Positions 14,174-44,568 of a stretch of DNA of 64,000 bases are shown piece after piece. Both the position numbers and the translations under genes were made by a program. Position 1 is the first letter of the stretch. Each line of letters starts with the position of its first letter. Under the pieces are notes generated by a model. It was not told where the DNA came from. It did no database searches and was given only the letters and a program-made list of their open reading frames with translations. Location of the stretch: the NCBI GenBank assembly GCA_044450645.1, contig JBIOJG010000030.1, positions 47 through 64,046 on the forward strand, given 5' to 3'. This DNA comes from Candidatus Binatia bacterium. Lineage in GTDB: Bacteria; Desulfobacterota; Binatia; HRBIN30.

Positions 14174-17100
14174 TCACCCTGCGGGGCACGCGAACAATTG
14201 TGAGTCAAGACAGCTGTCGTACGACTCGTCGATGGTACCGTTGTCGCCCACGTCGATGGTCACGCCACCGGACGTGTAGGTGATGCGGTCGGTCTTGCCA
14301 CCGGCGGTCACCCGGATCGCCCCAAGGGTGGGGCAAACGTTTCCGGGTGGAATCGAAAGCGGCGTTACGGTCTGGAAGATGACATCATCGCCACCGAGGC
14401 AGGCCGAATTAGCGGTCCCATTCACCGTGCCTACGTCGTTTCCGGATGTCCGGTCATCGGCGAAAACGAAACTGGTGAACGTGGCGCTGAACGTGCCACC
14501 TTCTGCGTCGGCCAGCGTTACGGGACCGTTGAGAGTGATACGGTAGATCTGCGGTACACAGTCGGTGTTGAACTGATCGATATCAACGCGCACGTCCGTG
14601 CTGTCAAAGCCGAGCGTTTCGTTGAGCATAGAGGTCTGAACAACGAGGGTGCCCGTAAGCATCATGTCGGCAGCCGCGATCTTGCATGCGGAGAAGAGGT
14701 CCGGCGTGACGTTGAGAGACCCTGTCAAGTTCACGGTTGCGGTGAGAGTGGTCATCCCCGCGTTGACTGCCGTGATGTGCATGTTGTTCACGGCGAAAGA
14801 GGAGAGGGACAGAGGCGGAAAGCCGCAGGTGGCCAGGAGTCCGGTCTCGGTTGACTGGGCGGTGATAGTGCCTTCGATCGTGACGGTCGCGCCGGTGGTG
14901 GTGTTGAGCGTGCAGTTGGTGAGCGTGACTACGTAGTCGCGCACGCCCGGAACGGCCTGGGTGCAGGTGAAATTGTAGGTGCCGCCACCGTTGCAGCTGT
15001 GGTCGGCAGCCGCGGTTCCTTCGAAGGCTCCAGCCGCTCCGCCCTTAGCGAGCGGGGCGAGTGACGAGATCAACGCGGGTAAGCCCTGCAAGCCTTGCAC
15101 CAGGGTGACAGTTGTCGCTGCCGCCCGCCGCGGCACGGTGCCTTGAGTGGTGGTGGGTGCTGGGGTGGGAGGGGATGCCGTTGGTGTAGGCGTGGCGGTT
15201 CGCGTAACGGTTGGCGGCAGCACTCCGGTAGCCGTCGGAGTCCTCGTCGGGGTGAGGATCGGGGCCACACAGCCGGTCAAGGCGTTGTTGACCGCCGTGA
15301 GTATCTCGTCGACTGTGATGACATTGTCCAGATTGGCGTCGCCAGGTAGGCACGCCACTATGCCTGTATTCCCGAGCGCGATATTCACCATTGTCAAGAT
15401 CTCATCCACGGTGACCTGATTGTCGCAGTTGCAATCGCCAACACAGGAGGAGCACAGGCCAGGGCTCGCGGTGGCCGTCGGGCTGCTGCTTGGCGAGCGT
15501 GAACCGGTTGCGGTTGGTGTCGCCGTCGCCGGCGAACCGGTGCGCGTGGCGGTTGGAGTGGGGGTCGGGGTCGCGGTCGCCGGTGAGGCCGTGGGTGTTG
15601 CCGAAGGTGTCGGCGTCCCCGTCGGTGGCCGTGAGCCGGTCGGCGTCGCTGAGGCGGTAGGAGTCGCTGTCGGTGTGGTCGTTGGCGTGAAGGTGATTTT
15701 CGGCGGTCGCGTCTGGGTCGGCGTCTGTGTGCGCGTCGGTGTTGATGTCGGTGAGCCTATCGGCGGCGTCAGGCTTGGGGTGGCTGAGGGCGTCAGCGTA
15801 CGCGTCGGCGTTGAGGTCGGAGAGGGGGGTCCCGGGGTTGCAGGTGTGGTTGAGGGTGTTGGGGAACGCGTTGGCGTCAAGGTTGCCGGCGGCACCGCAG
15901 TCGCAGTTGGCGTCGGGGTTGGGGTTGTTGACGGGGTTATTGTTGGCGTGAAGGTGATCTTCGGTGGCCGCGTCTGTGTCGGGGTCAGGGTTGGCGTCAG
16001 TGACATGGTTGCTGTCGGTGTCAGGCTGGGTGTTCGTGTCGCGGTCGGTGTCAATGAAGGCGACACGGTCTGCGTCGGGGTGGAAGTCGGTGGCCGCGTG
16101 CCGGTCGGCGTAAGCGACGGCGTGAAGGTGCGTGTGGGTGTGAAGGATGGCGGAGGCGTCTCGGTTGGCGTGTTGGGTGGAGTCTCAGTATACGTCGGCG
16201 TGAAGATCGGCGACTGTGTCTGCGTCGGCGAGGCAGTCCGCGTACGCGTGGGTGTCCAGGTGGGCGGCGTGCCTGTCCTTGTCGGAGGCGGCGTGCCGCC
16301 GATGCAGATTCGTAGCCCCCAGCTATCGAGAGTGCCCGTGTCGAACAGCTGTCGGTCATAGATTTCCAACAGCCAGACGCCAGCGGCATCCTCGCCAGTA
16401 AACAGCCCAAGCGGTTCACTGGGCAGATGTGGCAGGCCGTCAGTCGGTGGACAGACCATCGGGCTGCCGAGATCGTCGAGAATGAGGTTGAAGCCGTAGT
16501 TGTTCCCACAGACCCGGTTCAAGATGGTCACATCGGTGCCCAACGGACTGATGAGATGGAATTCGAGGTCTTGCATGAACGTGTGCGTGCCGGTGAGCGG
16601 TCGGACGCTTACGGAGGTGATGGTCCCTCCCGAGGGCACGACCAAGAATGAGGCCGTCGACCCGAGATCGGGAATCGATTGGGGAACATCATTAGAAGAA
16701 TAATCATGACAGTTCGGTGGTATCGTGGCAGTAGGGGTCGGCGGCGGTGTACCGAAGCACACTTTCAGTCCCCAGCCTTGAAGGGTACCGGTGTCCCCGG
16801 CTTCGCGGTCGAAAATCTGCAACTTCCAGGTGCCGGCCGCGGTCTGTCCGTGGAAGGTGGAGAGCGGATTATCGGGGACGCGGGGCAAGCCATCGGTCAT
16901 CGGACAGGTGAACGGGCCTCCCAAATCGCTCACGTCGAGGTGGAAATCCTGAGAGCTTCCGCACTTGCGATTGATGATGGTTACGTCGGTACTCGCCGGA
17001 CTGATCAGGTGAAACTCCAGATCTTGCACGAACGTGTGTGTGCCGGTGAGGGAGAGCACACTGACCGAGGTGAGCGCGCCGCCGCTGGGAACGTTGAGCG

Positions 17101-18841
17101 TGGAGATTGTGAAACCGAGATCCGGAATCGCTTTGGGCACGTCGGTCGAGAAGTAGTTCTGGCAGCCGGGCTCTGCTGTCGGTGTGGGCGTTGGCGTACC
17201 ACCGCCGAAGCAGACCTGTAGCCCCCAGCCTTGAAGGGTGCCGGTGTCCCCGGCTTCGCGGTCGAAAATCTGCAACTTCCAGGTGCCGGCCGCGGTCTGT
17301 CCGTTGAAGGTGGAGAGCGGATTATCAGGGACGCGGGGCAAGCCATCGGTCATCGGGCAGGTGAACGGGCCTCCGAGATCGCTCACGTCGAGGTGGAAAT
17401 CCTGAGAGCTTCCACACTTGCGATTGATGATGGTTACGTCGGTACTCGCCGGACTGATCAGGTGAAACTCCAGATCTTGCACGAACGTGTGTGTGCCGGT
17501 GAGTGAAAGCACACTGACCGAGGTGAGCGCGCCGCCGCTGGGAACGTTGAGCGTGGAGATTGCGGAACCGAGATCCGGAATCGCTTTGGGCACGTCGGTC
17601 GAGAAGTAGTTCTGGCAGCCGGGTGGAGGTGTTGCCGTCGGCGCTGGGGTATTGGTCGGGGTGGTGGTGACTTCGATAGTCCAACTCTTGAGTGCTGTGA
17701 CCTGAGGCTCTCCTACGTCAGGAGTGCCGTTGCCGTTGCTGTCTGCGAACGCCAGTATCGAGTCGTCTCCAGCGCCACCGGCATCCGTATAGGTGAAGGT
17801 CACCTTCCCGTCTGCGTCGCTATGACAATCCGCTGGCACGCAACTCCCAGTGGCCCCCAAGTTTGGTCCTGCCGTGATCTTGAAGCCGATGAGGCTGCCG
17901 GGTACCGGAGCGCCCGTCGCGTCGCGGAGTTGGGCCGTGACGGTGTGCGTTGTGCCGACGGGGTTTGATGCCGAACCCGGTGTGAGCGACAAGCCTACGG
18001 AAATGAGTTGCTCACCGCGCGCCAGGATGTATGGTGTCCCGACCGTTCCATCCGGGGCAGTAAATGAGGACCCAAAGTTCCGTGCGATGGCCAACACCAG
18101 GAAATTGGCTGGCCACTTATCGAACGCTTCGTGTACCGAACAACTCCAGTTCGAGATGTCCACGTCGGTGAGGCCGGCCAGGGCCGGATGGGAGGCGACG
18201 ATGTGTGCGTCATTGTAGCAGTTTAGATTTCCGGTTACGGTAAACCCGCCGGCGAAGAAAGCGTCCAAGAGCGGCACCGGTGTGCCCGCACTCGCATAGT
18301 TGTAGTAGCAGCTTAGAGTGATGTAGGCGCCGGTCTTGTTTGGCTCGGCTGCGGCAAAGGCGATGCCTTTTTCAGTAAGTGTAGCAGCACCCGCTACACC
18401 TATTGCGGCATGATAGGCGGGGTCGGCCCCGATGAGGATCACGTTGCCGCTGACCGCCGGTCCCCACACTCCGGTGTTTGCCTGGGCCGCAGAAACTGGG
18501 CCAGTGCTGGTAGTGTTACACGTAGGGTCTCCGAGGATTATCGCCTTGTAGGTGGCAAAGTCGGCCGTGCTCTTGGCGGCCCATCCCGCGTCGTCCACGA
18601 TTTCGACGCCGAACCCCAACGCCGTTGCCTTCGTGGCTTCAACGCTGGAGGTTCCGCCGCTCACCGTGTTAGCAAGAATGAGCACCGTGTTAGAGTCAGC
18701 CGCGCCGGTTGCTAGTGCGGGATGGCGACCGCCACCGAGTACCAATAGTCCCAAGACAATGATTAGCAGCGACGTGACGAATGGCCTGCGCGAGCGCCTG
18801 CCGGCATCGCACCGCTCTTGCGTAACGGTTGCAGAGTTCAT
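14174..18841 (-). CDS. giant secreted multidomain protein: N-terminal unknown domain, Big-like Ig domain, 3 tandem proprotein-convertase-type P-domains, about 250-aa Pro/Thr linker, dockerin-like module, C-terminal unknown domain
   Basis: The ORF track gives 14174-19051; a signal-peptide-like start (MNSATVTQERCDAGRRSRRPFVTSLLIIVLGLLVLGG) lies at about 18841. Three about 150-aa repeats have the P-domain pattern (GTWKLQIFDREAGDTGTLQGWGLQVC). Dockerin-like CVGDCNCDNQVTVDEIL...PGDANLDNVITVDEIL. No subtilase domain was recognised. Confidence 0.8.
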   Translation of the reverse strand: MNSATVTQERCDAGRRSRRPFVTSLLIIVLGLLVLGGGRHPALATGAADSNTVLILANTVSGGTSSVEATKATALGFGVEIVDDAGWAAKSTADFATYKAIILGDPTCNTTSTGPVSAAQANTGVWGPAVSGNVILIGADPAYHAAIGVAGAATLTEKGIAFAAAEPNKTGAYITLSCYYNYASAGTPVPLLDAFFAGGFTVTGNLNCYNDAHIVASHPALAGLTDVDISNWSCSVHEAFDKWPANFLVLAIARNFGSSFTAPDGTVGTPYILARGEQLISVGLSLTPGSASNPVGTTHTVTAQLRDATGAPVPGSLIGFKITAGPNLGATGSCVPADCHSDADGKVTFTYTDAGGAGDDSILAFADSNGNGTPDVGEPQVTALKSWTIEVTTTPTNTPAPTATPPPGCQNYFSTDVPKAIPDLGSAISTLNVPSGGALTSVSVLSLTGTHTFVQDLEFHLISPASTDVTIINRKCGSSQDFHLDVSDLGGPFTCPMTDGLPRVPDNPLSTFNGQTAAGTWKLQIFDREAGDTGTLQGWGLQVCFGGGTPTPTPTAEPGCQNYFSTDVPKAIPDLGFTISTLNVPSGGALTSVSVLSLTGTHTFVQDLEFHLISPASTDVTIINRKCGSSQDFHLDVSDLGGPFTCPMTDGLPRVPDNPLSTFHGQTAAGTWKLQIFDREAGDTGTLQGWGLKVCFGTPPPTPTATIPPNCHDYSSNDVPQSIPDLGSTASFLVVPSGGTITSVSVRPLTGTHTFMQDLEFHLISPLGTDVTILNRVCGNNYGFNLILDDLGSPMVCPPTDGLPHLPSEPLGLFTGEDAAGVWLLEIYDRQLFDTGTLDSWGLRICIGGTPPPTRTGTPPTWTPTRTRTASPTQTQSPIFTPTYTETPPNTPTETPPPSFTPTRTFTPSLTPTGTRPPTSTPTQTVSPSLTPTATRTPSLTPTATMSLTPTLTPTQTRPPKITFTPTITPSTTPTPTPTATAVPPATLTPTRSPTPSTTPATPGPPSPTSTPTRTLTPSATPSLTPPIGSPTSTPTRTQTPTQTRPPKITFTPTTTPTATPTASATPTGSRPPTGTPTPSATPTASPATATPTPTPTATRTGSPATATPTATGSRSPSSSPTATASPGLCSSCVGDCNCDNQVTVDEILTMVNIALGNTGIVACLPGDANLDNVITVDEILTAVNNALTGCVAPILTPTRTPTATGVLPPTVTRTATPTPTASPPTPAPTTTQGTVPRRAAATTVTLVQGLQGLPALISSLAPLAKGGAAGAFEGTAAADHSCNGGGTYNFTCTQAVPGVRDYVVTLTNCTLNTTTGATVTIEGTITAQSTETGLLATCGFPPLSLSSFAVNNMHITAVNAGMTTLTATVNLTGSLNVTPDLFSACKIAAADMMLTGTLVVQTSMLNETLGFDSTDVRVDIDQFNTDCVPQIYRITLNGPVTLADAEGGTFSATFTSFVFADDRTSGNDVGTVNGTANSACLGGDDVIFQTVTPLSIPPGNVCPTLGAIRVTAGGKTDRITYTSGGVTIDVGDNGTIDESYDSCLDSQLFACPAG
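16292..17650. repeat. intragenic tandem repeat, period 453 bp, 3 copies; copies 2 and 3 (16745-17650) are about 97% identical
   Basis: Seen as duplicated antisense ORFs 16679-17221 and 17231-17506, whose translations differ at 5 of 90 residues. They correspond to P-domain repeats 1 and 2 of the giant protein; the third copy is divergent. Confidence 0.7.
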
Positions 18842-19190
18842 AACGACTGCCGCCAAGCAAGGTGGTCCCCCACCCACGACTTCCCTGCGTATCGCTATCA
18901 TTTGTGTCGCCCCCGTTACGTCGTGCTGTCGTGCTGCGCCAGATCGTGACCTAATTGCCCTGGAGGGCGGTAGGCAATACGCGTGCCAGCGTGGACGGCG
19001 AGGCGGCCCTCGCGACCTACGAACGAACAGACCCGTGGTCTTCCGAGTCATGGGAAAACTCTTCTTGTGCGCCGGGGCAACCGCTGGAGTAGTACGAGCG
19101 AAAAGAGGCTAGAATTCCGCAAGACCGCCCGGTTGACTCGCCTGGTATCAGCCAGAGGGGGAGACGCGGATTCCGATTCCTAGTGCTTTT

Positions 19191-19475
19191 TCAGTGGCGC
19201 ACGTGAAAGACGTCGAACTCGCCGGTGTACGGCAGCCAGTGCTCTTCGACATCGGTTACGAGCGCAGCGCGTGGACCGACGTGGCCCCAGGCTGCCAGAA
19301 GCTGCAGCCGCTCCTTCGAACCCTCGGCAACGAGTTCGACGTCGCCATCGGAGGCGTTGCGTACCCACCCCGTGAGTGCAAGGCGGCGGGCCTCAGCCAC
19401 TGCGGAGAAACGAAACCCGACTCCCTGCACGCGCCCCTTGATGCGGAGCCATAGGCGCGCCCGTTCTTCGGCCAT
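19191..19475 (-). CDS. acyP: acylphosphatase
   Basis: 94 aa. RVQGVGFRFSAVAEARRLALTGWVRNASDGDVELVAEG is the acylphosphatase signature. Confidence 0.85.
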   Translation of the reverse strand: MAEERARLWLRIKGRVQGVGFRFSAVAEARRLALTGWVRNASDGDVELVAEGSKERLQLLAAWGHVGPRAALVTDVEEHWLPYTGEFDVFHVRH

Positions 19476-19502
19476 AGCGTGACGTGTCCTGGTTTTGGCG
19501 TG

Positions 19503-24549
<5,047 letters not shown>

Positions 24550-24553
<4 letters not shown>

Positions 24554-26136: not shown

Positions 26137-26161
26137 GGCGTGCCGGATGATCCCCCAGACG

Positions 26162-27031: not shown

Positions 27032-27084
27032 TGTGGCGTGAATCGGAGCCGTAACGGTCTGTAGTGCTAGAGCTTGTTTTGGTG

Positions 27085-27429: not shown

Positions 27430-27456
27430 CAATTGGGATAGTCAGAACCTGCAAAA

Positions 27457-32187: not shown

Positions 32188-32575
32188 TCTTCTCTGCGAC
32201 GCTCCCCATGACGAGATGTTCGAGGCCGCTGCGGCCGTGCGTCGCCGTGACAATCAGATCCACGCTGCGCTGCGTGGTGATTGCGAGCAGCTGTTCGTAG
32301 GGGTCGCCGATATCCACCACGAACTCGCACTTCGAGTATCCCCCCGTCCATTTCTGATGGATGTCTTCCAGCAGCGAGCGGGCGCGGTTGCGGGCTTCGT
32401 CGAATGTGAGGGTCGGCCGTTCATGCTGGTACAGCTCCCCGCTGGGGACGTGAATGATGTGCGCCAGAAGGAGGGTTCCATCGGAAGCCCGTGCGAAACG
32501 CCCCCCGTATTCGATGGCGCGATACGAAGCGTCGGAGAAATCCGTCGGGCAGAGAATAGTCTTGAATTCACGCAT
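32135..32575 (-). CDS. universal stress protein (UspA family)
   Basis: MREFKTILCPTDFSDAS...HGRSGLEHLVMGSVAEKIIRHAPCPVFVV is the full UspA signature. Confidence 0.85.
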   Translation of the reverse strand: MREFKTILCPTDFSDASYRAIEYGGRFARASDGTLLLAHIIHVPSGELYQHERPTLTFDEARNRARSLLEDIHQKWTGGYSKCEFVVDIGDPYEQLLAITTQRSVDLIVTATHGRSGLEHLVMGSVAEKIIRHAPCPVFVVRRGAK

Positions 32576-32591
32576 GCTTGCTCTCCTCTTC

Positions 32592-35072
32592 TCAGACGAC
32601 AACTTCGGCGGCCCGCAGCTTTGCGACCTCCGCCGCACTCATTCCGAGAACGCTCTGCAGGATCGAGTCCGTGTGCTCACCAAGTAACGGCCCCGGGCCA
32701 CGTACTTGGCCCGGCGTCTCGGACATTTTGAACGGCACGCCATCGAATTCCACGGTCTCGCCTTCCGGCGTGGCAATCCTTGCCCAGTAACCGCGGGCTT
32801 GCAAGTGCCGATCTCGTTGACAGAGGTCTTCGGCATTCGCAACTATGCCGGCGGCCAGCCCGGCGCTTTGCAGATGCGTCATGACTTCTTCCGCAGCGCG
32901 GTTTCTGGTCCATGACTCGACGTGAGCATCGAGCGCGGCGCGGCTGGCGATGCGCCCGCGCTCGGTTGCGAAGCGTTGGTCGCCCGCCCACGGCGGATTC
33001 CCGAGGGCGCGCCGGAAGCGCGCCCAGTCGTCCTCGCCGAAGACGGCGATCGCGCACCAGCGATCGCCGGCTGGCCCAACACTGGGCAAATCGGCGCAGC
33101 GATACACACCGTGCGGTGCCGCCGGCATTTCCTGAGAAGCGTTGCCGACCGGCGTTGCGAAACTGCGATGCACCAGGATATCGAGCAGTCCGGGGCCAAG
33201 TAGGGCGGTCAGGTTTTCGAATTGCGACAAATCGATGCGCTGGCCTGCGCCTGTCCGGTGCCGATGCCAGAGGGCCATCAGAACGGCCAGCGCGCCGCTG
33301 TAGCCTGCGGCCATGTCGGAGTACGAAAATCCCCAGCCGCTGGGCTCGCCGTCCACATGGCGCATCAGTAGCGTGTATCCAGCCAGCGCCTGCAAAGTGG
33401 GGCCGTACGCGACGTAGTCCCGGTACGGACCGGTGTGACCGAACCCAGACATACTGAGGGCGATGATCTCCGGCTTCAAACGGCGGAGGCTCTCGTAATC
33501 CAGTTGCCAGTTCCGCATCACGCGTGGGCTGAAGTTGTCAACCACCACGTCCGCCGTCGCGACGAGTTGTTTCGCCAGCTCAACTCCCCGCTGGGTGTTC
33601 ATGTTGATCACGATGCTCTGCTTCCCGCGGTTGAGATTGCCGGTCAGCCCGCCGCGGCGCGAGCCGAAGTCGAGGGCGTCACGCCGCTCGATCTTGATGA
33701 CCTCGGCGCCGTGATCCGCGAGGATGCGTGTCGCTACCGGGCCGGCCACGACCCACGTAAAGTCGATGATTCGCACGCCCTCGATCGTGCTGAGAGGAAA
33801 GGGCTGAGCGTTGAGCGCTGAGTCCTGAGTCCTGAGTCCCGAATCTGCGTTCTGTGCTTCGATCTCCGCCAACACTTCGTTGGTGTGCTCGCCGACCAAC
33901 GGTGGCCGGCGGCGGATACGCCAAGGCGTGCTGCTGAACACGTAGGGAGCGCCGGGGTACGCGAGAGTGGCGTTCAACTCCTCGTGGCGGACCGGCACGA
34001 AGAAGCCGCGGTCGAGTAGCTGCGGATTGTGCGGCAGCGTTTCTGGTGGGAGCACCGGGGCGTAGGGGATGCGCCGGAGTTGCGCGCCCTCGACCAAGTC
34101 GGCGACGGCGTAGTCTTTGGCCCACTGATCGAGCACGTCGAAAAGATGATTGCAGTGGTCGCGCCGGTGGTTGAAATCTTCCCACGCCGGCTCGACCAGG
34201 TCCTGCGCTTTGCCGTCCGCCTTCACCCACTCGATCAATGAAGTCCAGTCGCACAACGCACAGTGCATGATGTAGCCATCTTTGCAGCGGCCCACCCGGA
34301 AGTAGCGTGTCCAGTGCAAGCTGCCGTGACGTTCGGCGATCGTGCCGTTGTGATGGAAAAAGCTGCTGGCGTGCTCCAGCGAACCGGCAACGCATTCCTG
34401 CAGGCTGACGTCGATCCACTGCCCGTGCCCGCTGCGCTCGCGCGCCAGCAGCGCCAGCAGCGCGCCGATGGCGGCATACGTGGAGGCGCTGTGATACGCC
34501 TGCAATCCCAATCCTTGCAGCGGGGGCTCGTGCTCGAAGCCGTTCACATAGACCATGCCCCCGAGTGCCTGTGCGATCAGATCGGAGCTGCGGAAGTCGC
34601 GGTGCGGGCCGGTTTGCCCGCCCGGCGTGATGGAGACTAACGTGAGCCGCGGGTTGCGTTTGGCCAACGCTCCATAACCAAGACCAAGTGTATCAAGACC
34701 GCCCGGCGTGCCGGTTTCCACGACCACATCGGCGGTCGCGGCGAGCCGCATGAAGCGCTCGCGGTCTCGCGACGTGCCGAGATCGAGGGCCACGCTGCGC
34801 TTGTTGGTATTGTAGTGCCAGAAAAAGAGCGAGCCAGCCGGTGCTTCCTTTTTTCCGTCCGGGAGAGGATCGAGGTGAGAAGATGAGATGACCGACGTGC
34901 CAGCGTCACCTCTGAAGAACGGCCCGATGCGTCGCATCGCCACACCGCCGGGTGGCTCGATCTTGATGACGTCCGCACCCATGTCGGCCAAAAGTTTGGC
35001 GCAGTACACACCAGACTCGTCCGCCAGGTCGAGCACGCGCACGCCATGGAGGGCGCCCGGAGACCCGATCAT
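32592..35072 (-). CDS. tandem-duplicated family III CoA-transferase (two CaiB/BaiF domains in one polypeptide)
   Basis: 826 aa. Domain 1 GVRVLDLADESGVYCAKLLADMGADVIKIEPPGG; domain 2 GVRIIDFTWVVAGPVATRILADHGAEVIKIERRD. Confidence 0.8.
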   Translation of the reverse strand: MIGSPGALHGVRVLDLADESGVYCAKLLADMGADVIKIEPPGGVAMRRIGPFFRGDAGTSVISSSHLDPLPDGKKEAPAGSLFFWHYNTNKRSVALDLGTSRDRERFMRLAATADVVVETGTPGGLDTLGLGYGALAKRNPRLTLVSITPGGQTGPHRDFRSSDLIAQALGGMVYVNGFEHEPPLQGLGLQAYHSASTYAAIGALLALLARERSGHGQWIDVSLQECVAGSLEHASSFFHHNGTIAERHGSLHWTRYFRVGRCKDGYIMHCALCDWTSLIEWVKADGKAQDLVEPAWEDFNHRRDHCNHLFDVLDQWAKDYAVADLVEGAQLRRIPYAPVLPPETLPHNPQLLDRGFFVPVRHEELNATLAYPGAPYVFSSTPWRIRRRPPLVGEHTNEVLAEIEAQNADSGLRTQDSALNAQPFPLSTIEGVRIIDFTWVVAGPVATRILADHGAEVIKIERRDALDFGSRRGGLTGNLNRGKQSIVINMNTQRGVELAKQLVATADVVVDNFSPRVMRNWQLDYESLRRLKPEIIALSMSGFGHTGPYRDYVAYGPTLQALAGYTLLMRHVDGEPSGWGFSYSDMAAGYSGALAVLMALWHRHRTGAGQRIDLSQFENLTALLGPGLLDILVHRSFATPVGNASQEMPAAPHGVYRCADLPSVGPAGDRWCAIAVFGEDDWARFRRALGNPPWAGDQRFATERGRIASRAALDAHVESWTRNRAAEEVMTHLQSAGLAAGIVANAEDLCQRDRHLQARGYWARIATPEGETVEFDGVPFKMSETPGQVRGPGPLLGEHTDSILQSVLGMSAAEVAKLRAAEVVV

Positions 35073-35295
35073 GCGTTGCCCGGATAGAAGAGGCCCTGCC
35101 CGAAGTCAACGCGCCATGGGCTCATTGGCCTGCTTGCCCGACCTTGGTGAGCCAGGCGTCCCCCGCGTGTGCAGGTTCGTTCAGCGCTGCAGCCATTTGT
35201 TGTTGATGGTCTTTTGCAGGTTGTGATAGCGATGGGTCCCATCCATGGAAGCCTGGGACAGAGCAGGCGCCGAGGCTCCTCACACATATGATCAT

Positions 35296-37833
35296 ATGAT
35301 CAATACGGGGCTCAGATTGGAGGGGGCCGACCCTCGGCATCGTCCACTCACGCGCGCCGGTACCACCGTCGCTGCCTGGGCGCTTGCCTTGGTTGCGCTG
35401 GGTTCGCCTTGGCGCGCAACCGCGCAAGGCATCGAGGGCACGACCTACGAGATGGAAAAGGTCACGCCGCAGGAGTTTCGCGGTAACGTGCGCAACCTGC
35501 CCAGGCTACCTCCCAGCCCCAAGATGTATCGACCCCTGCTGCGGGGACCACGTAGCACCAAAATATTTCCGAGCCGACCAACCACTTTTGAGTCAATCCC
35601 TGTCCCATTTTCCCTCCCGTTGGCGCAGATGCCCGGCCCGGTGGAAGACTTTGCCGGTCTGAGTTTCATCGACAGCTGCACCGGTGGACAGTGTGGCGCG
35701 GGCTGGCCTCCCGACCCGAACGGGGACGTGGGTTCGAACCATTATGTCCAAGCGGTCAACGATGCCTATGCCATCTACAGCAAAACCGGCACCCTGCTTG
35801 CCTCGTTCACGGAGGATCAGTTGTGGAGCGGTAGTGGAGCGAATCCCTGCAACGGTGATTCTCAGGGCGACACCGTTGTTGTGTACGATCAGCTGGCGGA
35901 CCGGTGGATTCTCACGCACTTTGCCTTCGCCACCGCTGGAAGCACCCCGGTCTCGCCGTTCTACGAGTGCATCGCGGTGTCGAAGACGAGCGACCCGGTT
36001 ACGGGCGGGTGGTGGCTGTATGCCCTGCGCATGGACCCAGGCGGCGCGGGCAAGCCTTCCATCAGTACAATGAACGATTATCCCAAATTTGGCTTGTGGC
36101 CCGATTGCCTGTACATGGCGGCCAATGGCTTCAGAGAACCGGGCGACACTTTCGTCGGGGTGGAGTATGCCTCATTCAGCCGCGGTGATCTGGAAAGTGG
36201 CGCCGCGCTGACATGGTCGCTGGGTGTTGTCAACAATGCGACGGACCCCTTCACCATGATTCCCAGCAACCTGTTGGGCAGCTCACCGGGCACGCTGCCC
36301 CCACCCGGTACGCTGAACTACTTCGTCTCCGAATCGCAAACCACGTCGGCCTTCGAGGTGAGAACATTTGCGCCGGGCGGCAACTGTGGTGCTGGCGGTA
36401 CGCTCAGCTCCGCGACGAATGTGAGCCAGACGACCTATTTGGGCACGCCCGGCATGAACGTGCCTCAGCCCAATACGACGAACCGGATCGATGCGATCGA
36501 CGACCGCCTGATGCAAAAGGTGCAATATCGCAAAGTCGGGAGCGCCGAATCGCTGTGGGTTGTTCATTCGGTCCAAACCTCATTCAGCGCTGCGGTGGCA
36601 CCGCAGTGGGCCCAGATCGATGTCACTGGGGGCACGATTGCTACAACACCGGTTCAGCAACAAATCTATGCACCCGATACGACCCTCTATCGCTGGATGG
36701 GTAGCATAGCTGCCGACAGCGAGGGCAACGCGGCGCTCGGCTACAGCACCTCGAATGGTACCGCGCCGAACTACCCCAGCATCGCCTACTCCGGGCGCCT
36801 CGTGGGCGATCCGCTCAATCAGCTGCCGCAAAGCGAAGTCAAACTGATCGACGGGGAAGGCTCGCAAACTAATAGTTGCAGTGGCATCCCATGCGGCCGC
36901 TGGGGCGATTACAGTGCAATGAGTGTCGATCCAGCCGACGACTGCACCTTCTGGTACACCAACGAGTACTACAGCAGCCAAGCGAACGGCAATAGTGGGA
37001 ACTGGCAGACACGCATCGGCTCGTTCAAGTTCCCGTCTTGCGGCAGCGCCGCGCCGACCAGCACCCCGACAAACGTACCCACGGACACCCCGACCGATAC
37101 GCCGACTCAGACGCCGACAGTCACGCCAACGAGTACTCTGACCGCAACGGAAACCGCGACACCGACCAATACGCCGACGGAAGCCGCGACGGCAACACCA
37201 ACAAACACGGCAACCGTGGCTCCGACCGACACGGCGACGCCGACAGCAACCGCAAGCGTGACGAATACCGCGACGGACACGCCGACTAATACCCCAACGA
37301 GCACAGCAACAGCGACTGTGACGAATACGCCGACAACAACCCCGACGAGCACCCCGTCGGACACGCCGACCAATACCCCGACTGACAGTCCGACCGTCAC
37401 CACCACCCCAACAGTTACGCCGACGAGTTCGCCTACCGATACACCGACCACTACCCCAACTCACACACCGACCGTAACGTCGACACAGACGTCCACTCAG
37501 ACACCAACCGCCACAGCAAGCGCGACGCCAACGCTAACGGCAACAGCGACCGGGATGCCGACGCCTACTTCCACAGCCACGGCGAGATCGACTCCGACTG
37601 GCGTCGCTACTCCAACCGCGACACCTACGGCCACGGCGACATTGGTCGCGTGCGTCGGCGACTGCAATGGAAGAAGGACGGTGACTGTGGACGAGATCCT
37701 TATCATGGTGGATATTGCGCTCGGCAACGCGCCGCTTCACTTGTGCAATTCCGGCGATGCGAACGGAGACGGACGGATAACGGTCGACGAGATTCTGAGC
37801 GCGGTGAACAATGCCCTGAACGGATGCCCTTGA
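35296..37833 (+). CDS. secreted protein: about 600-aa unknown domain, Pro/Thr linker, C-terminal dockerin-like module
   Basis: Signal peptide [22 protein letters not shown]. The unknown domain is Cys- and Trp-rich ([25 protein letters not shown]). TPT-repeat linker of about 190 aa. C-terminal [25 protein letters not shown]...[29 protein letters not shown]. Confidence 0.7.
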
Positions 37834-37890
37834 CTCGAATCCTGAATGACCATCCTTTGATTTCGCCTGGCAATCGGGTAGGGAACATCC

Positions 37891-38694
37891 ATGCCGTGGG
37901 TACGTGTCGGAGATGCGTCGCTCAACTACGAGCAGGCAGGCGAGGGTACGGACCTCGTTCTGATTCACGGTCTGGGCGGTGACCTACACATCTGGGATGC
38001 CGACGCACCGGTTTTCGCGCGGCACCACCGCGTGCTGCGCTACGATGTCCGTGGCTGTGGGGCATCCGAGAAGCCGCCGGGGCCGTACTCACTCTCGCTA
38101 TTTGCGCGTGACCTGGACGCGCTACTCGCGGCCTGTGGCGTGCGTGCTGCTCACATTCTTGGCGTATCGATGGGTGGCGTGATCGCCCAGCGCCTCGCGT
38201 TCGATGATCCGGATCGCGTGCGGTCACTGGTGTTGGTGAGCACCTCGAGCGAGGTGGGCGCAAGATCGATCGCTGCCTGGCAGCGGTTGGCCGACCTGAT
38301 CGAACGCGAAGGCTTCGATGCCCGTAGCGCAGACGCGTCACGTGCCTTCTCGCCGGCGTTTGCCACCCGTCATCCCGAGGTGGTGGCCGAGCTTGGCCGC
38401 CGGAATGCCACGAACGATCCGCGCGCCTATGCCGCGACGGCGCGCGCGGTGAGCGACTACAACTGGACCGCCGAGTTGCCGCACCTGACGGCACCAACCC
38501 TCATTCTGCAGGGCCTCGATGACCAGCTGACGCCGCCGGGCGGCTCGGTGAAGATGAGTCGGGCGCTGGCGCATGCACGGCTGCTGATGATTGCCGAGGC
38601 GGGACACAACCTGGCGCTTGAACAGCCGGCGGTCTTTCACCATGCCGTCCTTGCGTTCACTGCCGGCGTAGACTTCGCGCGTCCCGCTTTTTGA
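37891..38694 (+). CDS. alpha/beta-fold hydrolase (enol-lactonase-like)
   Basis: DLVLIHGLGGDLHIWD, GVSMGGVIAQ (GxSxG), conserved C-terminal His region. Confidence 0.8.
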   Translation: MPWVRVGDASLNYEQAGEGTDLVLIHGLGGDLHIWDADAPVFARHHRVLRYDVRGCGASEKPPGPYSLSLFARDLDALLAACGVRAAHILGVSMGGVIAQRLAFDDPDRVRSLVLVSTSSEVGARSIAAWQRLADLIEREGFDARSADASRAFSPAFATRHPEVVAELGRRNATNDPRAYAATARAVSDYNWTAELPHLTAPTLILQGLDDQLTPPGGSVKMSRALAHARLLMIAEAGHNLALEQPAVFHHAVLAFTAGVDFARPAF

Positions 38695-38728
38695 CACCAT
38701 CCCTCGGTTTCACTACGGGTGTACGCAC

Positions 38729-39745
38729 ATGCGGCGGTTTTCGTATCGGGCCTTCTTATGGGTGTTTGCTGCCGGCAACGCCATCGTCTGGTTTCTGATC
38801 TTGTACGGCCTCGGATTGTTCCTGCACGCCCATCTGGCTCGGGATGGCTGGTTGACACGCCAGAGCGCGGCACGGATGGTATGCTTCGGGTTACTCATCC
38901 CTAGTGTGCTCTCGCTTCAGGGAGCCATAGTGAACTTGCGCGTGCAGTTCTTGCTTGGTCGTTTTCTGTCACCGGCTGACGTATCGGCTTCACCCAGGGT
39001 GGTGCGCAGTCCGTGGTACGTGGCGGTGATGACGGCCGCGATATTCTGGGCGGCAGGGCTGCCGGTCTTCTTTGGCATGCTGTATTGGCGGCTACCCGAG
39101 GGGCTGGGAGCTCGAGGAATGGCGCTGCTGATGGGTGGCGTCGGCGCGCTGTCTATCTTGATGCTGGCAGCCTTTGCTGGTGACCGCGAGTTGCGTAGCT
39201 ACCTCCGTGTGATGGACGAGCCGACGGCGATGCCGATCTCGGCGGCACGCTACGCCGTGTGCCGCATCGCGATCCCTTGGGGAGTGGTGAACGCGGTCAT
39301 TAATGCCGTCTTGGCCTGGATTACGTATAGTGTGGGCACAGGAGGCGCGCCGGCGGTGCTCCTTGACGACTTGCGCGCCGATCTCGCCGTCATGGCGTTT
39401 CTCATCAGTGTGTTCATGGCGCTGTCGGCGTTACCGGAGGTGGAGACAGATTTTCGGCGAAACGTGGTGCAGGTGCCGGCCTGGTTGCCGTCGATGCCAC
39501 GGCTGTGGGTGCGGTACGGTTATGCGCTCGGTGTGGGGCTGGCGACGTATGCCGCCGTGACCGCAGCGGCGGCATCCGGCGTCTCCAGCGTATCGTTGGC
39601 GACTGCCGTTGTGGCCAAGAGCCTCATCAGCGGCGCTGTTGCGGCAGGTGCTGCCGGCGCCTGTGCCCTGTGGGGACTCGGTCGCTGCGCTCGCAGACGG
39701 GCTCCCCGAGACGTCGATGTCCTGGCGCCGGCAACGGCGCTTTGA
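38729..39745 (+). CDS. hypothetical polytopic membrane protein
   Basis: 338 aa. About 8 hydrophobic helices. No recognisable motifs. Confidence 0.45.
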   Translation: MRRFSYRAFLWVFAAGNAIVWFLILYGLGLFLHAHLARDGWLTRQSAARMVCFGLLIPSVLSLQGAIVNLRVQFLLGRFLSPADVSASPRVVRSPWYVAVMTAAIFWAAGLPVFFGMLYWRLPEGLGARGMALLMGGVGALSILMLAAFAGDRELRSYLRVMDEPTAMPISAARYAVCRIAIPWGVVNAVINAVLAWITYSVGTGGAPAVLLDDLRADLAVMAFLISVFMALSALPEVETDFRRNVVQVPAWLPSMPRLWVRYGYALGVGLATYAAVTAAAASGVSSVSLATAVVAKSLISGAVAAGAAGACALWGLGRCARRRAPRDVDVLAPATAL

Positions 39746-39776
39746 ATGAATCAGCAGAGCAGAAGGGAACGCGAAG

Positions 39777-40238
39777 ATGAAGCGACGGAACCAGATTCAC
39801 ATGACGCCAGACGAAATGCGGCAATTCCTGAAACGTTCGAAGACGATCGTTCTCTCCACCATTGACCACCACGGGTATCCGCACTCGGTCGCCATGTGGT
39901 ACGAGATGGAGGGGGATGATTTCGTCATGACGACCTATGCCAAATCACAGAAGGCGATGAACATCCGCCGCAATCCGAAGGTTGCGTTGATGGCGGAATC
40001 GGGGGAGACCTACGAGTCGCTCAAGGGGGTGCTGGTGCGCGGCCGGGCGGAACTCATCACGGATGCCGAGCGGTGCGTCGGGATCTTGCTGCGCGTACAC
40101 GAGAAGATGAGCGGTGCCGCGCTGCCGCCCGGGGCCGAGGGCGTGTTGCGCGAGCAGGCACGCAAGCGCGTCCTGATCAAGGTCACGCCCGAGCGCACGA
40201 GTAGTTGGGACCACAGCAAGCTGGGCGGCGTGTACTGA
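39777..40238 (+). CDS. pyridoxamine 5'-phosphate oxidase-family (PPOX class, possibly F420/FMN-binding) protein
   Basis: 153 aa. SKTIVLSTIDHHGYPHSVAMWYEMEGDDFVMTTYAKSQKAMNIRRNPKVAL split-barrel FMN-binding pattern. Confidence 0.7.
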   Translation: MKRRNQIHMTPDEMRQFLKRSKTIVLSTIDHHGYPHSVAMWYEMEGDDFVMTTYAKSQKAMNIRRNPKVALMAESGETYESLKGVLVRGRAELITDAERCVGILLRVHEKMSGAALPPGAEGVLREQARKRVLIKVTPERTSSWDHSKLGGVY

Positions 40239-40344
40239 GGATAAGCCGAAACCGGAACGCCCGACACCGCCTGCGGTGTGCTGGTCGACCGTGTTCCATA
40301 GCCAGGCACATAGCCTGGCGAGCTTCTAACAGTGCGGCGCCTTA

Positions 40345-42174
40345 TTGCAAATGGACGGACGGAAGCGCATGAGAGGTCGAGTCAGCTTTTGCATGATGTC
40401 TAGGGATCAACGCTTTCGGCATCGCGCACGGGGCATCCTCCTTGTGTCCGTGGTATTCCTGTCATGCATGAATATGGCGGTTGCAGCAGAAGTGCTCCCC
40501 GGCGACGCGGACTGCGACGGCGGAGGAATCGGCGCCGCTGACCTTGTTGCCCTCGAGGACGCCATCTTCTCCGGCAGCGACTGCGCCGGCGCGGACGTGA
40601 ACCATGACGGCGCAGTGACGGCAGCTGACCTGGTGGCGGAAATGGTGTTGCTGGTTCCGCCAACGTCGACCCCAACGCTGACACCGGCACCGTCGGTCAC
40701 CCTGACGCCAGTCCCTTCAGTCACGAACATCCCATCTCCCACGCCGTTTCCTACTGCCACCGTCTCGGCGACGCCGACGATCACGTTGAGCCCTACGATC
40801 ACTGGTACGCCTACGGTGAAAGGGTCACCGACCCGCACGTTCACGCCATCGCGGACGGCGACCCCATCTGCGACACCCACGCGTACGCTCCGGCCCACGC
40901 CCACGATCACCTCAACCTGGACCATTCCGCCGTCACCTACTCGCACAGCGACGCTCACGCCAACACCAACCCGTACGCCAACCTCAACCCGCACGCCGAC
41001 GGTGACACCTACGTCTACTCCGAGCCCCACACCAACTTCCACGCCGACGCTCACTGGGACGCCGACGCCGACGAAAACGGCCACTGCGACCGCCACGTCC
41101 ACCGCCACGCCAACGGTCACGCCGACTTCCACCGCGACCCTAACGTTCACGCCGACGCCGACTTTCACCGTGACCCCGACGTGGACCGCCACCCGAACGT
41201 CGACCGCGACGCGGACCCCGACCGAGACTGCGACAAACACCGCGACGCCGACGCCGACGCCGTCTCAGACCGCAACCGGTACGGCGACCGGGACGCCGAC
41301 GCTCACGGCCACGCGGACATTCACCGCGGTGCCGACGGCGACGGGGACCTACTCGCCGACGTTGACACCGAGCGTGAGCCCGACGCGAACATCGAGCCCA
41401 ACGGTGACCTCTTCCCCCACGACCAGTGCGACGCGGACTTTCACCCCGAGCTTTACAGCGACGGTCACGGCAACAGCGACGGCCACGGCAACACTGACGC
41501 CGACGGGGCAGGGTCCGATCATCACGTTTTTCGGAGTCCTGACGAGAGCGGATGGCTGTATTTCCTGCTGTGACGTCAGTTGCGCCAACACACCGACGCC
41601 CACGCCGTTCTTTGATGACCAGGGCCGCCGCATTTTTCAGGTCGACGGCGGTATCCTGAATATCGTCGTCGAGGGCGGCAAGGGGCTGAGTACAGCGGAT
41701 GTAGCGACATCACTGCAACCGAGCCCCCCGGACAATCGACCCGACCTTCAGATCGAGGCCACGCAAAGCCTCGGCGACGGCAGCCCTGCAGTATGCGACA
41801 TCGGTCCCACCTCAGCGGGAGGCGGCGGTGTTCCCGGGATAGTGCCGCCCGATTTTACACTTGAACCGAACCCGGGGCCGACGCCGGGGACGATCTCCGG
41901 GGCGCTGGCCGATTTCGCCTGCCGCTTCAGCTACCAAGCACCAGGTTTCCAATGCACCTACTGGGACCTGGCGACGCCGGGGTATGCCGGCCCGGGAAGT
42001 TCCGCTCAGTTCTGCGACCAGACGGATGCGAACGCCGCGTTCAATCCGGGAGACTCGATTTTGACGGTGCGGTTGCGTGACGTCAACGGCAACACCGGGC
42101 CGACGGCGCAGATTGTGGTCCGAGTGAACACGCCAAGGCCGACGCGAACGCCGACGCAAACGCCGACGCCGTGA
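40345..42174 (+). CDS. secreted protein: N-terminal dockerin-like module, about 250-aa Pro/Thr linker, C-terminal unknown domain (paralog A)
   Basis: Signal peptide ([20 protein letters not shown]; start likely an internal Met near 40393). [25 protein letters not shown]...[23 protein letters not shown]-terminal domain with [10 protein letters not shown] and [14 protein letters not shown]. Confidence 0.7.
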
Positions 42175-42282
42175 AACGGCTGGGAAATTCCCGCGGCCGC
42201 GCCGGGACGCTCCTGGATCGTCCACGGTTCGATCTTCTCATATTGCAAACGGCGTGCATTCCAGGCATGACCAGAGCACTGT

Positions 42283-44568
42283 ATGCTGCGTTCTGGTGTC
42301 TCGCGCGCGAGCGGTCTTCGTTATCACGGTGCGAGCCTGGTGGTCGTGGCCTTCCTGTGCATGTGGGCGTGCGGCTCAATCGCCGCGGCCACGACCTTGC
42401 CGGGGGATGCGGATTGCGATGGCGATGCCTTGGTCGATGCGACTGATGTCGCCGCTGTTGTTGCCGCGATCTTCGAGGGCAGTTCGTGCGCCGGTGCGGA
42501 CGTCAACGGTGACGGGGTGCTCTCGGCTGCGGACCTTCCCGCCGAGGTGATGGCGTTCGCTGCTCCGCCATCTGAGACGCCGACAGTTACGCCCAGCCCC
42601 GGCCTGACGCCCTCGCTGACGGCGACCGCAACCGTAACGCCGTCGCCCACGCTTTCACCTTCGCCTGTCACGCCGCCGTCTACCGCGACATGGACTGTCA
42701 CCCCATCAATCACGCCAACCTTCTCCGTGACCTCAACGCCGTCCAATACGGCGACGCACGGGCCGAGCCAGACACCGTCGTTGACTGCCACCGCGTCGCG
42801 GACACCGACCTTCACAACGTCGCCCTCGCCGAGCACCACTCCAACGTCAACCGCAACTGCGACCCGGACACCCAGCCCGACGCGGACGCCGACAGCAACG
42901 CCATCGCCGACCCCGACGCGCACGCCGACGGCAACTTTATCGCCGACCCCGTCCCGGACACCAACGTTCACCTTTACGTCGTCGCCAAGTGTGACACCGA
43001 CACCAACCCCAACCGCGACGCTGACGCCGAGGCCGACGCGCACGCCTACGGCGACGGCGTCGCCGACTATGTCCTGGACACCAACGTTCACTTTCACGTC
43101 CTCGCCAACTGCAACACCGACACCGACCCCAACCGCGACGCCGACGCCGAGCCCGACGCGCACGCCTACGGCGACGCCGACGCCAACGCCCTCACGAACG
43201 CCGACTTTTACGGCCACGCCCTCGCTGAGCCCGACTCCCACACCATCGCCAACCGACACCGGCACGCCAACGCCGACGCCAACACTCACGTCGACACCGA
43301 CGCCGACACCCTCCCGGACGCCGAGTTTCACGTCTACGCCGTTCCCCACACTGAGCCCGACACCGACGTTCACGGTGACATTGACGCCAACGTCAACGGG
43401 AACTCCGACCGTCACGGCGACGCCGTCGCTGACCCCGACGCCGACGCTATCGCCCACCAGCACTCAGACGTTGAGCCCAACGCCGACTAAAACGCCTACG
43501 GCAACTCGGACAGCGACCTGGACACCGACACAGACGCCGACACCAACACCGACGTCATCGAACCCGGGGCCGCAGGTGCTCTTCTTTGGCATTACGAGCC
43601 CAGATGGGTGTCTGGCTTGCCCAGCCCCTGGATGCGACTGTGTCAGTTGGCCGACACCGACGCCGTTTGTCGGCCCGGGTCCTCAGATCTTTTCGGTTCC
43701 CGGGCAGTTCATGATTGTCATCGAGGCGACGCCAGGCACAAACGGTGTGCCGGTCTCGAAAGTCCCGTACGTACAGCCGGGATGCGGTCCGGGCGTTGGG
43801 CGTCCGGATCTGCAAATTGAGACCACCCGAAACATGGGAACCGCCAGCACCCCATTGTGCAGTCTGGACGGGAGCATCACTCAGCTCGGATACATCCCGG
43901 GCATTCCGACGCCCAGCTTCGGCCCGGATACAGGCCCGACCCCCACGATCACGAACGCGCTGCAAAACTTCTCCCTGACGTTCACGTACCATGACCCTCT
44001 CACCGGTCCATGCACCAAGGATGCCGGAGGCAACGACGCGTATTTCCACGCAGGCGCGACGCAATTCTGCAGCGACCAAATCACTGGGGCTCAGAGCTTC
44101 CCTCAGGGCGAGTCGTTGCTCACTCTCCAGGTGCTCGATGCGAACCATAACCCCGGGCCAACGGCACAGATCATCGTGCGGGTACCAACCTGGACGCCAA
44201 CTCCGACCATAACGCCCACACAGCCCACGTCTACAGCCACGGCAACGCAACCGTCCGCAACTCCTACCGTTACCTTTACGCCGACGATGACAGGGACCCC
44301 GACCGGCACGCCAACTGCGACGCTGGCGTCAACGCTCACCGCGACGTCGACGGCGGCGTCTACGCTTACTCCCAGCGTGACGCCGACGCAGACACCAACT
44401 AGCACGCCAACTGCAACGTCATCACCAACGCTCACCGCGACAGGGGTGGCGACGCCGACGCCTACCGTGACGCCTACACCGTCAGCAACCCCGACGGCCA
44501 CGGAAACCCCAACGCCGTTTCCCACGGAGACGTTCACTCCTGGCCCGACGCCGACCAACACGCCTTAG
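42283..44568 (+). CDS. secreted protein: N-terminal dockerin-like module, Pro/Thr linker, unknown domain, second Pro/Thr tail (paralog B of 40345)
   Basis: Signal peptide. [26 protein letters not shown]...[22 protein letters not shown]. Shares [10 protein letters not shown] and [14 protein letters not shown] with paralog A. Confidence 0.7.

What the first reader, a model, noticed from the sequence alone, without database searches (positions are those of the whole stretch)
14174..44568. Dockerin-like Ca-binding modules on four large secreted proteins in a non-cellulosomal context
Four proteins carry a duplicated EF-hand-like segment matching the dockerin pattern D-x-N-x-D-G-x-(V/I)-(T/N)-x-x-D-(L/E)-(L/I/V). 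The clearest instances are [14 protein letters not shown] (40345 protein) and [14 protein letters not shown] (42283 protein), each preceded by a second D-A-D-C-D-G loop. At the C-terminus of 35296-37833 the form is [17 protein letters not shown]...[15 protein letters not shown]. The giant protein has an internal copy (GDCNCDNQVTVDEIL...GDANLDNVITVDEIL). The module is N-terminal in two proteins, C-terminal in one and internal in one, and is always separated from the other domains by 150-250-aa Pro/Thr linkers. That is the organisation of cellulosome components, but none of the attached domains looks like a glycoside hydrolase. I recognised no cohesin in the window. The partner could be elsewhere in the genome, or could be the novel paralog family at 44747-50370.
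Basis: partly seen in the sequence, partly recalled or inferred. Interest (0 to 1): 0.75.

Follow-up and report, generated by a model that had tools for sequence, protein, structure and literature searches.

The report
Two dockerin classes in a Binatia bacterium
Four secreted proteins of an uncultured Binatia bacterium each carry a small calcium-binding "dockerin" plug on a very long flexible tether, which suggests a protein-docking system like the one in cellulose-degrading bacteria but used here for unrelated cargo; dockerins outside cellulose degraders are already known, so this is a solid but only moderately surprising finding.

Summary

The window comes from a Candidatus Binatia MAG and contains no cohesin. 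Another Binatia genome encodes a six-cohesin scaffoldin that ends in a class B module, so a non-cellulosomal cohesin-dockerin system with partners elsewhere in the genome is the best reading. The paralog array is not cohesin-like. It does form a conserved, order-preserved four-gene operon directly downstream of class A proteins in more than 20 loci, which is an uncharacterised system.

Non-cellulosomal dockerins are already known, so this is a new variant of a known kind. Interest is moderate.

The parts
42391..42561 (+). Class A dockerin module of the 42283-44568 protein. It sits directly after the signal-peptide-like segment. Loop 1 is DADCDG with a 2-residue insertion, loop 2 is [12 protein letters not shown], and there is a Cys in loop 1 and a Cys 4 residues before loop 2.
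   Evidence: Pfam Dockerin_1 scores 28.3 bits on the isolated module (GA 22.9) and 22.7 on the whole protein.
40489..40656 (+). Class A dockerin module of the 40345-42174 protein.
   Evidence: Dockerin_1 is the best Pfam hit at 18.6 bits, below GA. It is 57% identical to the 42283 module, and syntenic orthologs pass GA.
37651..37830 (+). Class B dockerin-fold module at the C-terminus of the 35245-37833 protein ([17 protein letters not shown]...[15 protein letters not shown]...NGCP).
15269..15454 (-). Class B module inside the 1,625-aa protein, flanked by a 280-aa and a 41-aa Pro/Thr linker.
   Evidence: The class B HMM scores 94 bits. It is 62% identical to the 37651 module.
14174..19051 (-). 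Giant secreted protein. Order: signal peptide (probable start near 18841), unknown N-domain with an Ig-like domain (17660-18709), three P_proprotein domains (16295-17629), linker, class B module, linker, unknown C-domain (14177-15145).
   Evidence: Pfam P_proprotein 2e-35 with 3 stretches, and Big_1-like 22 bits below GA. No Pfam, NCBIfam or PDB hit for the end domains.
35245..37833 (+). Secreted protein. Order: signal peptide, 540-aa domain of unknown function (35431-37050), 200-aa Thr/Pro/Ala linker (37051-37650), class B module.
   Evidence: No Pfam, NCBIfam or PDB sequence hit for the N-domain.
40345..42174 (+). Class A protein 1. Order: signal peptide, class A module, 285-aa Pro/Thr linker (40657-41511), conserved ~210-aa C-domain (41512-42135).
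   Evidence: 43% identical to the 42283 protein over the C-domain. The architecture recurs in 50 of 60 N-complete homologs.
42283..44568 (+). Class A protein 2. Order: signal peptide, class A module, 335-aa linker (42562-43566), C-domain (43567-44193), 124-aa Pro/Thr tail.
44747..50370 (+). Four ordered paralog genes (44747-46183, 46190-47515, 47530-48978, 48991-50370). They encode secreted Cys-rich beta-sandwich proteins that form a conserved operon with the class A genes. They are not cohesin-like.

Best explanation
The four ORFs encode secreted modular proteins of a Candidatus Binatia bacterium. Each carries one dockerin module, made of two tandem Ca2+-binding loop-plus-exit-helix repeats ('F-hands') joined by a short helix. 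Each module is tethered to its cargo by a 200-335-aa Pro/Thr linker that is probably extended. There are two homologous classes. Class A is an ordinary Dockerin_1-type module with Asp at loop position 12. Class B is a divergent, very abundant subfamily with Glu at position 12, as in canonical EF-hands, and four conserved Cys that probably form two disulfides. The most likely function is Ca2+-dependent plugging of diverse non-cellulolytic cargo into cohesin domains of scaffold or anchor proteins encoded elsewhere in the genome, that is, a non-cellulosomal cohesin-dockerin assembly. What is shown: the module sequences, the predicted fold, class A family membership, A/B homology, cohesins in the lineage, and the absence of a cohesin in the window. 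What is inferred: Ca2+ binding, disulfides, secretion, cohesin binding, and cohesins in this particular genome.
Against: No cohesin is in the 64-kb window, in 80 metagenome loci around class A genes, or in four class B neighbourhoods. I could not search the rest of this MAG, so a cognate cohesin in this genome is unproven. Most cohesin hits of the type used as query came from Chloroflexota, and only one came from Binatia. The window's class B copies fail PF00404 and score only sub-threshold EF-hand hits. Loop 1 of the 35245 module lacks the position-5 ligand and Gly6. Many organisms have dockerins without known cohesins (established knowledge, Peer et al. 2009, cited in PMC9012536).
Confidence: 0.6

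Rival explanations
1. The class A dockerins do not bind a cohesin. They dock onto a complex formed by the four paralogous beta-sandwich proteins encoded immediately downstream, which would be a new non-cohesin receptor.
For: One to four class A-linker-C-domain genes are followed 9-340 bp later, on the same strand, by the paralogs in the window, in Binatia genome GCA_023150935.1 (L012) and in 20 of 80 metagenome loci. Twelve of those loci have the full set of four. Gene order is conserved: 12/12, 12/12, 12/12 and 11/12. No cohesin lies near any class A gene.
Confidence: 0.15
2. The modules are Ca2+-dependent structural or stabilising elements, or bind a non-protein ligand such as cell-surface polysaccharide or mineral. 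They have no dedicated protein partner, i.e. they are orphan dockerin-like domains.
For: No partner is present in the window or in the neighbourhoods examined. Class B has canonical EF-hand Glu12 and scores against EF-hand models (PDB phmmer hits are EF-hand CaBPs). Dockerins without cohesins are common (established knowledge).
Against: The fold matches dockerins and not EF-hand pairs, and there is no entering helix. Class B sits at the end of a six-cohesin protein and on a two-cohesin protein. The two repeats are near-duplicates, as in partner-binding type I dockerins. The terminal position on long tethers, with swapping between cargoes, fits a docking role.
Confidence: 0.2
3. The segments are generic thrombospondin type 3, RTX or FG-GAP calcium-binding repeats, or chance matches in low-complexity sequence.
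For: The best PDB sequence hit for class A is a TSP3-like OmpA protein, 5wtl, at E 0.003. D/N/G-rich loops are common.
Against: No TSP_3, RTX or FG-GAP Pfam hit falls on the modules at E<=10; the only FG-GAP_3 hit (E 0.92) is in the giant protein's N-domain, not in the module. There are exactly two loops, each followed by a helix, at dockerin spacing. Shuffles give 0.03 hits. The fold searches are specific for dockerins.
Confidence: 0.03

Closest known systems
Type I dockerins of cellulosomal enzymes (Pfam PF00404; e.g. C. thermocellum Xyn10B dockerin 2ccl_B, C. acetobutylicum CaDoc0917 6kg9)
   Same: About 60 aa. Two duplicated 12-residue Ca-binding loops, each followed by a helix, with a short linking helix. 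Terminal position on a Pro/Thr linker. Predicted structure superposes at 2.4-2.9 A over 54-62 residues. Class A passes the Pfam threshold.
   Different: The cargo is not glycoside hydrolases. The host is an uncultured Binatia bacterium rather than a cellulolytic Firmicute. Class B has Glu rather than Asp at loop position 12 and four conserved Cys. Linkers are 200-335 aa, far longer than typical. Class A is N-terminal. No scaffoldin is in the window.
Non-cellulosomal cohesin-dockerin systems (C. perfringens NagH/NagJ 2ozn; Archaeoglobus fulgidus; ANME archaea; surveyed by Peer et al. 2009, as cited in PMC9012536)
   Different: Nothing has been described for Binatia/Binatota (0 papers). The class B sequence signature is different. 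A six-cohesin scaffoldin-like protein (L005) is more elaborate than most non-cellulosomal cases, which according to PMC9012536 generally lack multi-cohesin scaffoldins in archaea.
Canonical EF-hand pairs (Pfam PF13499; calmodulin, troponin C, Entamoeba CaBP)
   Same: The class B loops fit the 12-residue EF-hand consensus, including Glu12. The best sequence hits in PDB are EF-hand proteins.
   Different: There is no entering (E) helix before either loop. Scores are below the gathering thresholds. Structural superposition is poor, with TM about 0.3 and rmsd about 10 A.

Membership tests
Dockerin (Pfam PF00404 Dockerin_1) | Sequence score at or above the curated gathering score (22.9 bits) | tested here: inconclusive
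   Class A: the 42283 module scores 28.3 (isolated) and 22.7 (whole protein), and the 40345 module 18.6. Three syntenic orthologs score 21.2, 35.8 and 23.4, so the class is a member. Class B in the window has no PF00404 hit. A homolog about 75% identical passes at 26.1/35.5, so the class straddles the threshold.
Dockerin (Pfam PF00404 Dockerin_1) | Two tandem repeats, each a 12-residue Ca-binding loop followed by a helix, with no entering helix (F-hand) | tested here: met
   This can be read directly from the sequences. The class B AF2 secondary structure is loop, H19-29, H35-41, loop, H51-63. Class A loop 1 in the two window proteins carries a 1-2 residue insertion, while the orthologs are canonical.
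Dockerin (Pfam PF00404 Dockerin_1) | Three-helix dockerin fold | tested here: met
Dockerin (Pfam PF00404 Dockerin_1) | Ca2+-dependent binding to a cognate cohesin | not testable with these tools
   This needs biochemistry or complex prediction. Indirect evidence: class B terminates a six-cohesin protein in a Binatia genome and a two-cohesin protein, P0243.
Cohesin-dockerin system (cellulosome-like) | Cohesin-bearing scaffoldin in the same genome | not testable with these tools
   There is none in the 64-kb window. The rest of the MAG could not be searched. One is present in another Binatia genome (L005).
Cellulosome proper | Dockerin-borne carbohydrate-active enzymes | tested here: not met
   No glycoside hydrolase or CBM Pfam hit was found on any of the four proteins. 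The cargo is P_proprotein x3, one Ig-like domain and unknown domains. Homologs carry M28/M64 peptidases, beta-propellers, beta-helix and DUF7453.
EF-hand pair (PF13499) | Helix-loop-helix with an entering helix, and a score at or above GA 30 | tested here: not met
   The best score is 25.9 bits. No helix precedes loop 1. TM to EF-hand structures is about 0.3.
Cohesin (PF00963), tested for the paralog array 44747-50370 | Cohesin sequence profile or cohesin beta-sandwich fold | tested here: not met
Thrombospondin type 3 / RTX / FG-GAP Ca-binding repeats | Match to PF02412 or the RTX/FG-GAP models on the modules | tested here: not met
   No such hit falls on the isolated modules at E<=10. The only FG-GAP_3 hit (E 0.92) lies in the giant protein's N-domain, not in the module.

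The most novel reading that the evidence does not exclude
The conserved operon, made of one to four 'class A dockerin - long Pro/Thr tether - C-domain' genes followed by four order-conserved secreted beta-sandwich paralogs, encodes a previously undescribed extracellular assembly of Binatia and relatives. In this reading the dockerin plugs into a non-cohesin receptor formed by the four paralogs. That would be a new dockerin partner class and a new surface machine unrelated to polysaccharide degradation.
Probability: 0.12. Interest if true: 0.75.

Novelty: new variant of a known kind. Interest (0 to 1): 0.45.

Why it matters
Binatia (phylum Binatota) is an abundant, uncultured soil and sediment lineage, and its cell-surface biology is undescribed. 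No paper in the library links it to dockerins or cohesins. There are three practical gains.

First, class B is a dockerin-fold family of at least 11,600 sequence clusters that current Pfam and NCBIfam models miss or mislabel as weak EF-hands. A dedicated model would re-annotate thousands of 'hypothetical' secreted proteins.

Second, a six-cohesin scaffoldin ending in a class B module shows that multi-enzyme docking scaffolds exist outside polysaccharide degraders. Here they display peptidases, beta-propellers and unknown domains.

Third, the class A genes plus the four-paralog operon form a defined, widely conserved, completely uncharacterised gene set that can now be tested directly.

The disulfide-containing, Glu12-type dockerin could also be a useful orthogonal pair for synthetic scaffolds.

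Tried and rejected
1. Exact-sequence contig look-ups for window proteins and same-MAG proteins (MreB, the 42283 protein, P0102, P0125) all returned nothing. I therefore could not reach the rest of the MAG to look for cohesins.
2. A word-indexed homolog search with the class A module found nothing. Class A relatives were recovered later through synteny and the metagenome scan.
3. PDB sequence searches for the cargo domains (the N-domain of the 35245 protein and the N-domain of the giant protein) found nothing. Pfam and NCBIfam on isolated cargo pieces also found nothing.
4. afdb50 fold search of the paralog model: the library was unavailable.
5. Peer et al. 2009 (PMC3035643) is not held. It is cited only through PMC9012536.
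6. Paralogs as cohesins: rejected on fold and profile. C-domain as cohesin: rejected.
7. EF-hand pair, TSP3, RTX and FG-GAP readings: rejected.
8. The 40-116-aa 'proteins' returned for class B are mostly gene-calling or contig-end fragments, not free-standing modules.
Full report
OBSERVATION. A six-frame regex scan for the loop pattern D-x-[ND]-x-[DN]-[GNRQ]-x-x-[TSVIN]-x-x-[DE] gives five hits, and the 'TVDEIL..VN.AL' helix pattern gives four. All hits are inside these four ORFs. Thirty shuffles of the window give 0.03 and 0 hits. All four proteins begin with a basic segment followed by a hydrophobic segment typical of Sec signal peptides. I read this from the sequence and ran no predictor. 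Domain maps:
- Giant protein 14174-19051(-): signal peptide, unknown N-domain with an Ig-like domain, three P_proprotein domains, 280-aa Pro/Thr linker, module, 41-aa linker, unknown 323-aa C-domain.
- 35245-37833: signal peptide, unknown 540-aa domain, 200-aa linker, module.
- 40345-42174 and 42283-44568: signal peptide, module, 285-aa or 335-aa linker, shared ~210-aa C-domain (43% identical). The second protein also has a 124-aa Pro/Thr tail.

TWO CLASSES. Class A is the pair of N-terminal modules. Loop 2 is D-V-N-x-D-G-x-[LV]-[ST]-A-A-D-L, with Asp at position 12 as in dockerins. Class A has a Cys inside loop 1 and another four residues before loop 2. Class B is the C-terminal and internal modules. 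Its family consensus is C-V-G-D-C-N-G-D-G-x-V-T-V-D-E-I-L-T-M-V-N-I-A-L-G-N-x5[28 protein letters not shown]. It has Glu at position 12 of both loops (55/60 and 54/60) and four conserved Cys (53/57, 58/60, 60/60, 60/60). Pfam gives Dockerin_1 as the only meaningful hit for class A: 28.3 bits for the isolated 42283 module against a gathering score of 22.9, and 18.6 for the 40345 module. Class B gets only sub-threshold EF-hand hits, the best being EF-hand_7 at 25.9 against 30. NCBIfam has no model for either class. The PDB sequence search returns EF-hand proteins for class B, and a TSP3-like OmpA plus weak dockerins for class A.

SOURCE AND SPREAD. The first paralog is 100% identical to MFI5397149.1, 'MAG: hypothetical protein ACHQ9S_16550 [Candidatus Binatia bacterium]'. 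The window is ordinary chromosome: mreBCD, PBP2, rodA, ligA, nadE, holA, dnaJ and a sigma-70 factor. A full HMMER scan of 1.84 billion cluster representatives with the class B profile finds 11,616 proteins at E<=1e-3 and 9,096 at E<=1e-10. The caveat is that the profile includes some Pro/Thr flank columns. Among the top hits of at least 200 aa, 58 modules are C-terminal, 14 N-terminal and 36 internal, and 28 proteins have more than one matched stretch. Cargo in ten long hits includes M28 and M64 peptidases, PD40 and sortilin/BNR propellers, beta-helix, TSP3 and DUF7453, plus one protein with two Pfam cohesins. Named sources are Binatia, 'Deltaproteobacteria' and Acidoferrales MAGs. The short 'proteins' first returned are fragments created by gene callers or contig ends at the Pro/Thr linkers.

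COHESINS. None is in the window. This rests on Pfam scans of about 50 ORFs and on a cohesin HMM built from P0243, run on all 733 six-frame ORFs with filters off, which gave a best E of 0.5. The single genome-collection scan, seeded with the P0243 cohesins, returned ten loci. Most are Chloroflexota and one is a Binatia genome (L005, CAZGEJ010000001.1). In L005, one 1,075-aa stop-to-stop ORF (1,072-aa from its first start codon) has six tandem cohesins (Pfam Cohesin 75 bits, E 9e-21; own HMM 68-111 bits each), followed by a class B module (71 bits). The upstream gene has a Pro/Thr linker, Dockerin_1 (25.6 bits), Cohesin (28.3 bits) and a C-terminal hydrophobic segment followed by Arg residues, which looks like a membrane or sorting anchor. 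The downstream gene has a Pro/Thr linker, TSP3 and a Dockerin_1-like module. This is the scaffoldin / anchoring-protein / dockerin-cargo logic of cellulosomes in a Binatia genome. It makes 'partner elsewhere in the genome' the most economical reading for the window.

They are, however, tightly linked to the class A genes. In Binatia genome GCA_023150935.1 (L012) the whole neighbourhood is syntenic: holA, Usp, hydrolase, PNPOx, three class A-linker-C-domain genes, four paralogs, then 5-FTHF cyclo-ligase, TrmI, TtuA and NUDIX. A metagenome scan with the C-domain gave 80 loci. Fifty of the 60 N-complete C-domain ORFs carry a class A module, with a median linker of 338 aa that is 76% P/T/S/A. Two carry class B instead. 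Twenty loci have paralogs starting 9-340 bp downstream on the same strand; 12 of them have exactly four, and in the other eight the contigs look too short to hold the full array. Positions 1 to 4 match window paralogs 1 to 4 in 12/12, 12/12, 12/12 and 11/12 cases. This is an ancient ordered operon of unknown function.

MECHANISM. The best-supported reading, at about 0.6, has the following steps.
- Sec export of the proteins.
- Oxidative folding of the module, with Ca2+ bound in each loop. This is inferred from ligand conservation. Loop 1 of the 35245 module may be defective because it has Arg at positions 5 and 6.
- Two disulfides in class B and one in class A. This is inferred from Cys conservation and position and has not been verified.
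- Long Pro/Thr tethers that give reach.
- Docking of the helix 1/helix 3 face into cohesins of scaffold or anchor proteins encoded elsewhere.
The near-duplicate repeats of class B resemble the symmetric repeats that give type I dockerins their dual binding mode. This is an analogy and was not tested.

The rivals are: a non-cohesin partner formed by the four paralogs (0.15); orphan structural or ligand-binding Ca modules (0.2); and generic TSP3/RTX/FG-GAP repeats or chance (0.03).

COMPARISON AND NOVELTY. Cohesins and dockerins outside cellulosomes are established in bacteria and archaea, and their roles are mostly unknown (PMC9012536, summarising Peer et al. 2009 and others). No paper in the library mentions dockerins together with Binatia or Binatota. 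The new elements are:
- the Glu12, four-Cys class B subfamily, together with its size and its lack of a curated model;
- a six-cohesin scaffoldin in Binatia;
- the conserved class A / four-paralog operon.
I rate this as a new variant of a known kind, with interest 0.45. It is a useful annotation and a clear lead, but a cellulosome specialist would not find the principle surprising.

Noticed in passing
window 40345-50370; L012 3307-15143; L015, L025, L027, L028, L038, L041, L044, L056, L059, L068, L072, L089: Conserved operon. One to four 'class A dockerin - Pro/Thr linker - C-domain' genes are followed on the same strand by exactly four secreted beta-sandwich paralogs in fixed order. No member has a Pfam or NCBIfam model, and the function is unknown.
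   Followed up: yes
L005 3074-9608 (Binatia genome CAZGEJ010000001.1): Cohesin-dockerin gene cluster. It holds an anchor-like protein (Dockerin_1 + Cohesin + C-terminal hydrophobic/Arg tail), a six-cohesin scaffoldin ending in a class B module, and a TSP3 + dockerin-like protein. Between cohesin 6 and the class B module there is another, weaker dockerin-like pair (FLDVDGSGG...LLDVDADGV; Dockerin_1 only 10.9 bits).
   Followed up: partly
window 16752-17623 (-): The first two of the three P_proprotein (proprotein-convertase P-domain) repeats of the giant protein form a 453-bp tandem duplication that is 96% identical at the DNA level, so the duplication is recent.
   Followed up: partly
window 21623-24553 (+): This is a fifth protein with a Thr/Pro/Ala linker of about 280 aa. 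It has a lipoprotein-like LFLGC motif, an unknown N-domain and a YNCE/lactonase-type beta-propeller, but no dockerin module. Long Pro/Thr tethers are therefore a general feature of this genome's exported proteins.
   Followed up: partly
L095 7422-10243; L096 and L097 9971-10135: Truncated or frameshifted class B half-modules lie as tiny ORFs among PIN/MazE toxin-antitoxin genes in metagenome contigs. They may be gene remnants or recombination debris. Unexplained.
   Followed up: partly
P0232 (1,554 aa) and P0222 (1,378 aa), hits: Some proteins carry four or five class B-like modules, including divergent copies (e.g. CVGDCDGDGGVDYEEAALC...). P0222 also appears to have cohesin-like segments ('...DVAFDPAV...', '...DIVFDPTLV...') that Pfam did not call. 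It may be a combined cohesin and multi-dockerin adaptor.
   Followed up: no
window 37672-37695 (loop 1 of the 35245 module): Loop 1 reads [12 protein letters not shown]. Arg replaces the position-5 ligand and the Gly6 hinge. P0001 has a similar G-G-R version. There may be a subclade with only one functional Ca site.
   Followed up: partly
window 44588-46183 and 47530-48978: Paralogs 1 and 3 carry extra Cys-rich insertions and C-terminal extensions (weak DUF7107-like hit, 18 bits) that are absent from paralogs 2 and 4.
   Followed up: no
L012 3300-9700 and window 40345-44568, both strands: The Pro/Thr linker DNA keeps long ORFs open on the opposite strand and in other frames. Public gene calls for the same sequence disagree on strand (L011 versus L012) and split off the modules as 40-116-aa 'proteins'. 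This is a systematic annotation artefact for this protein class.
   Followed up: partly
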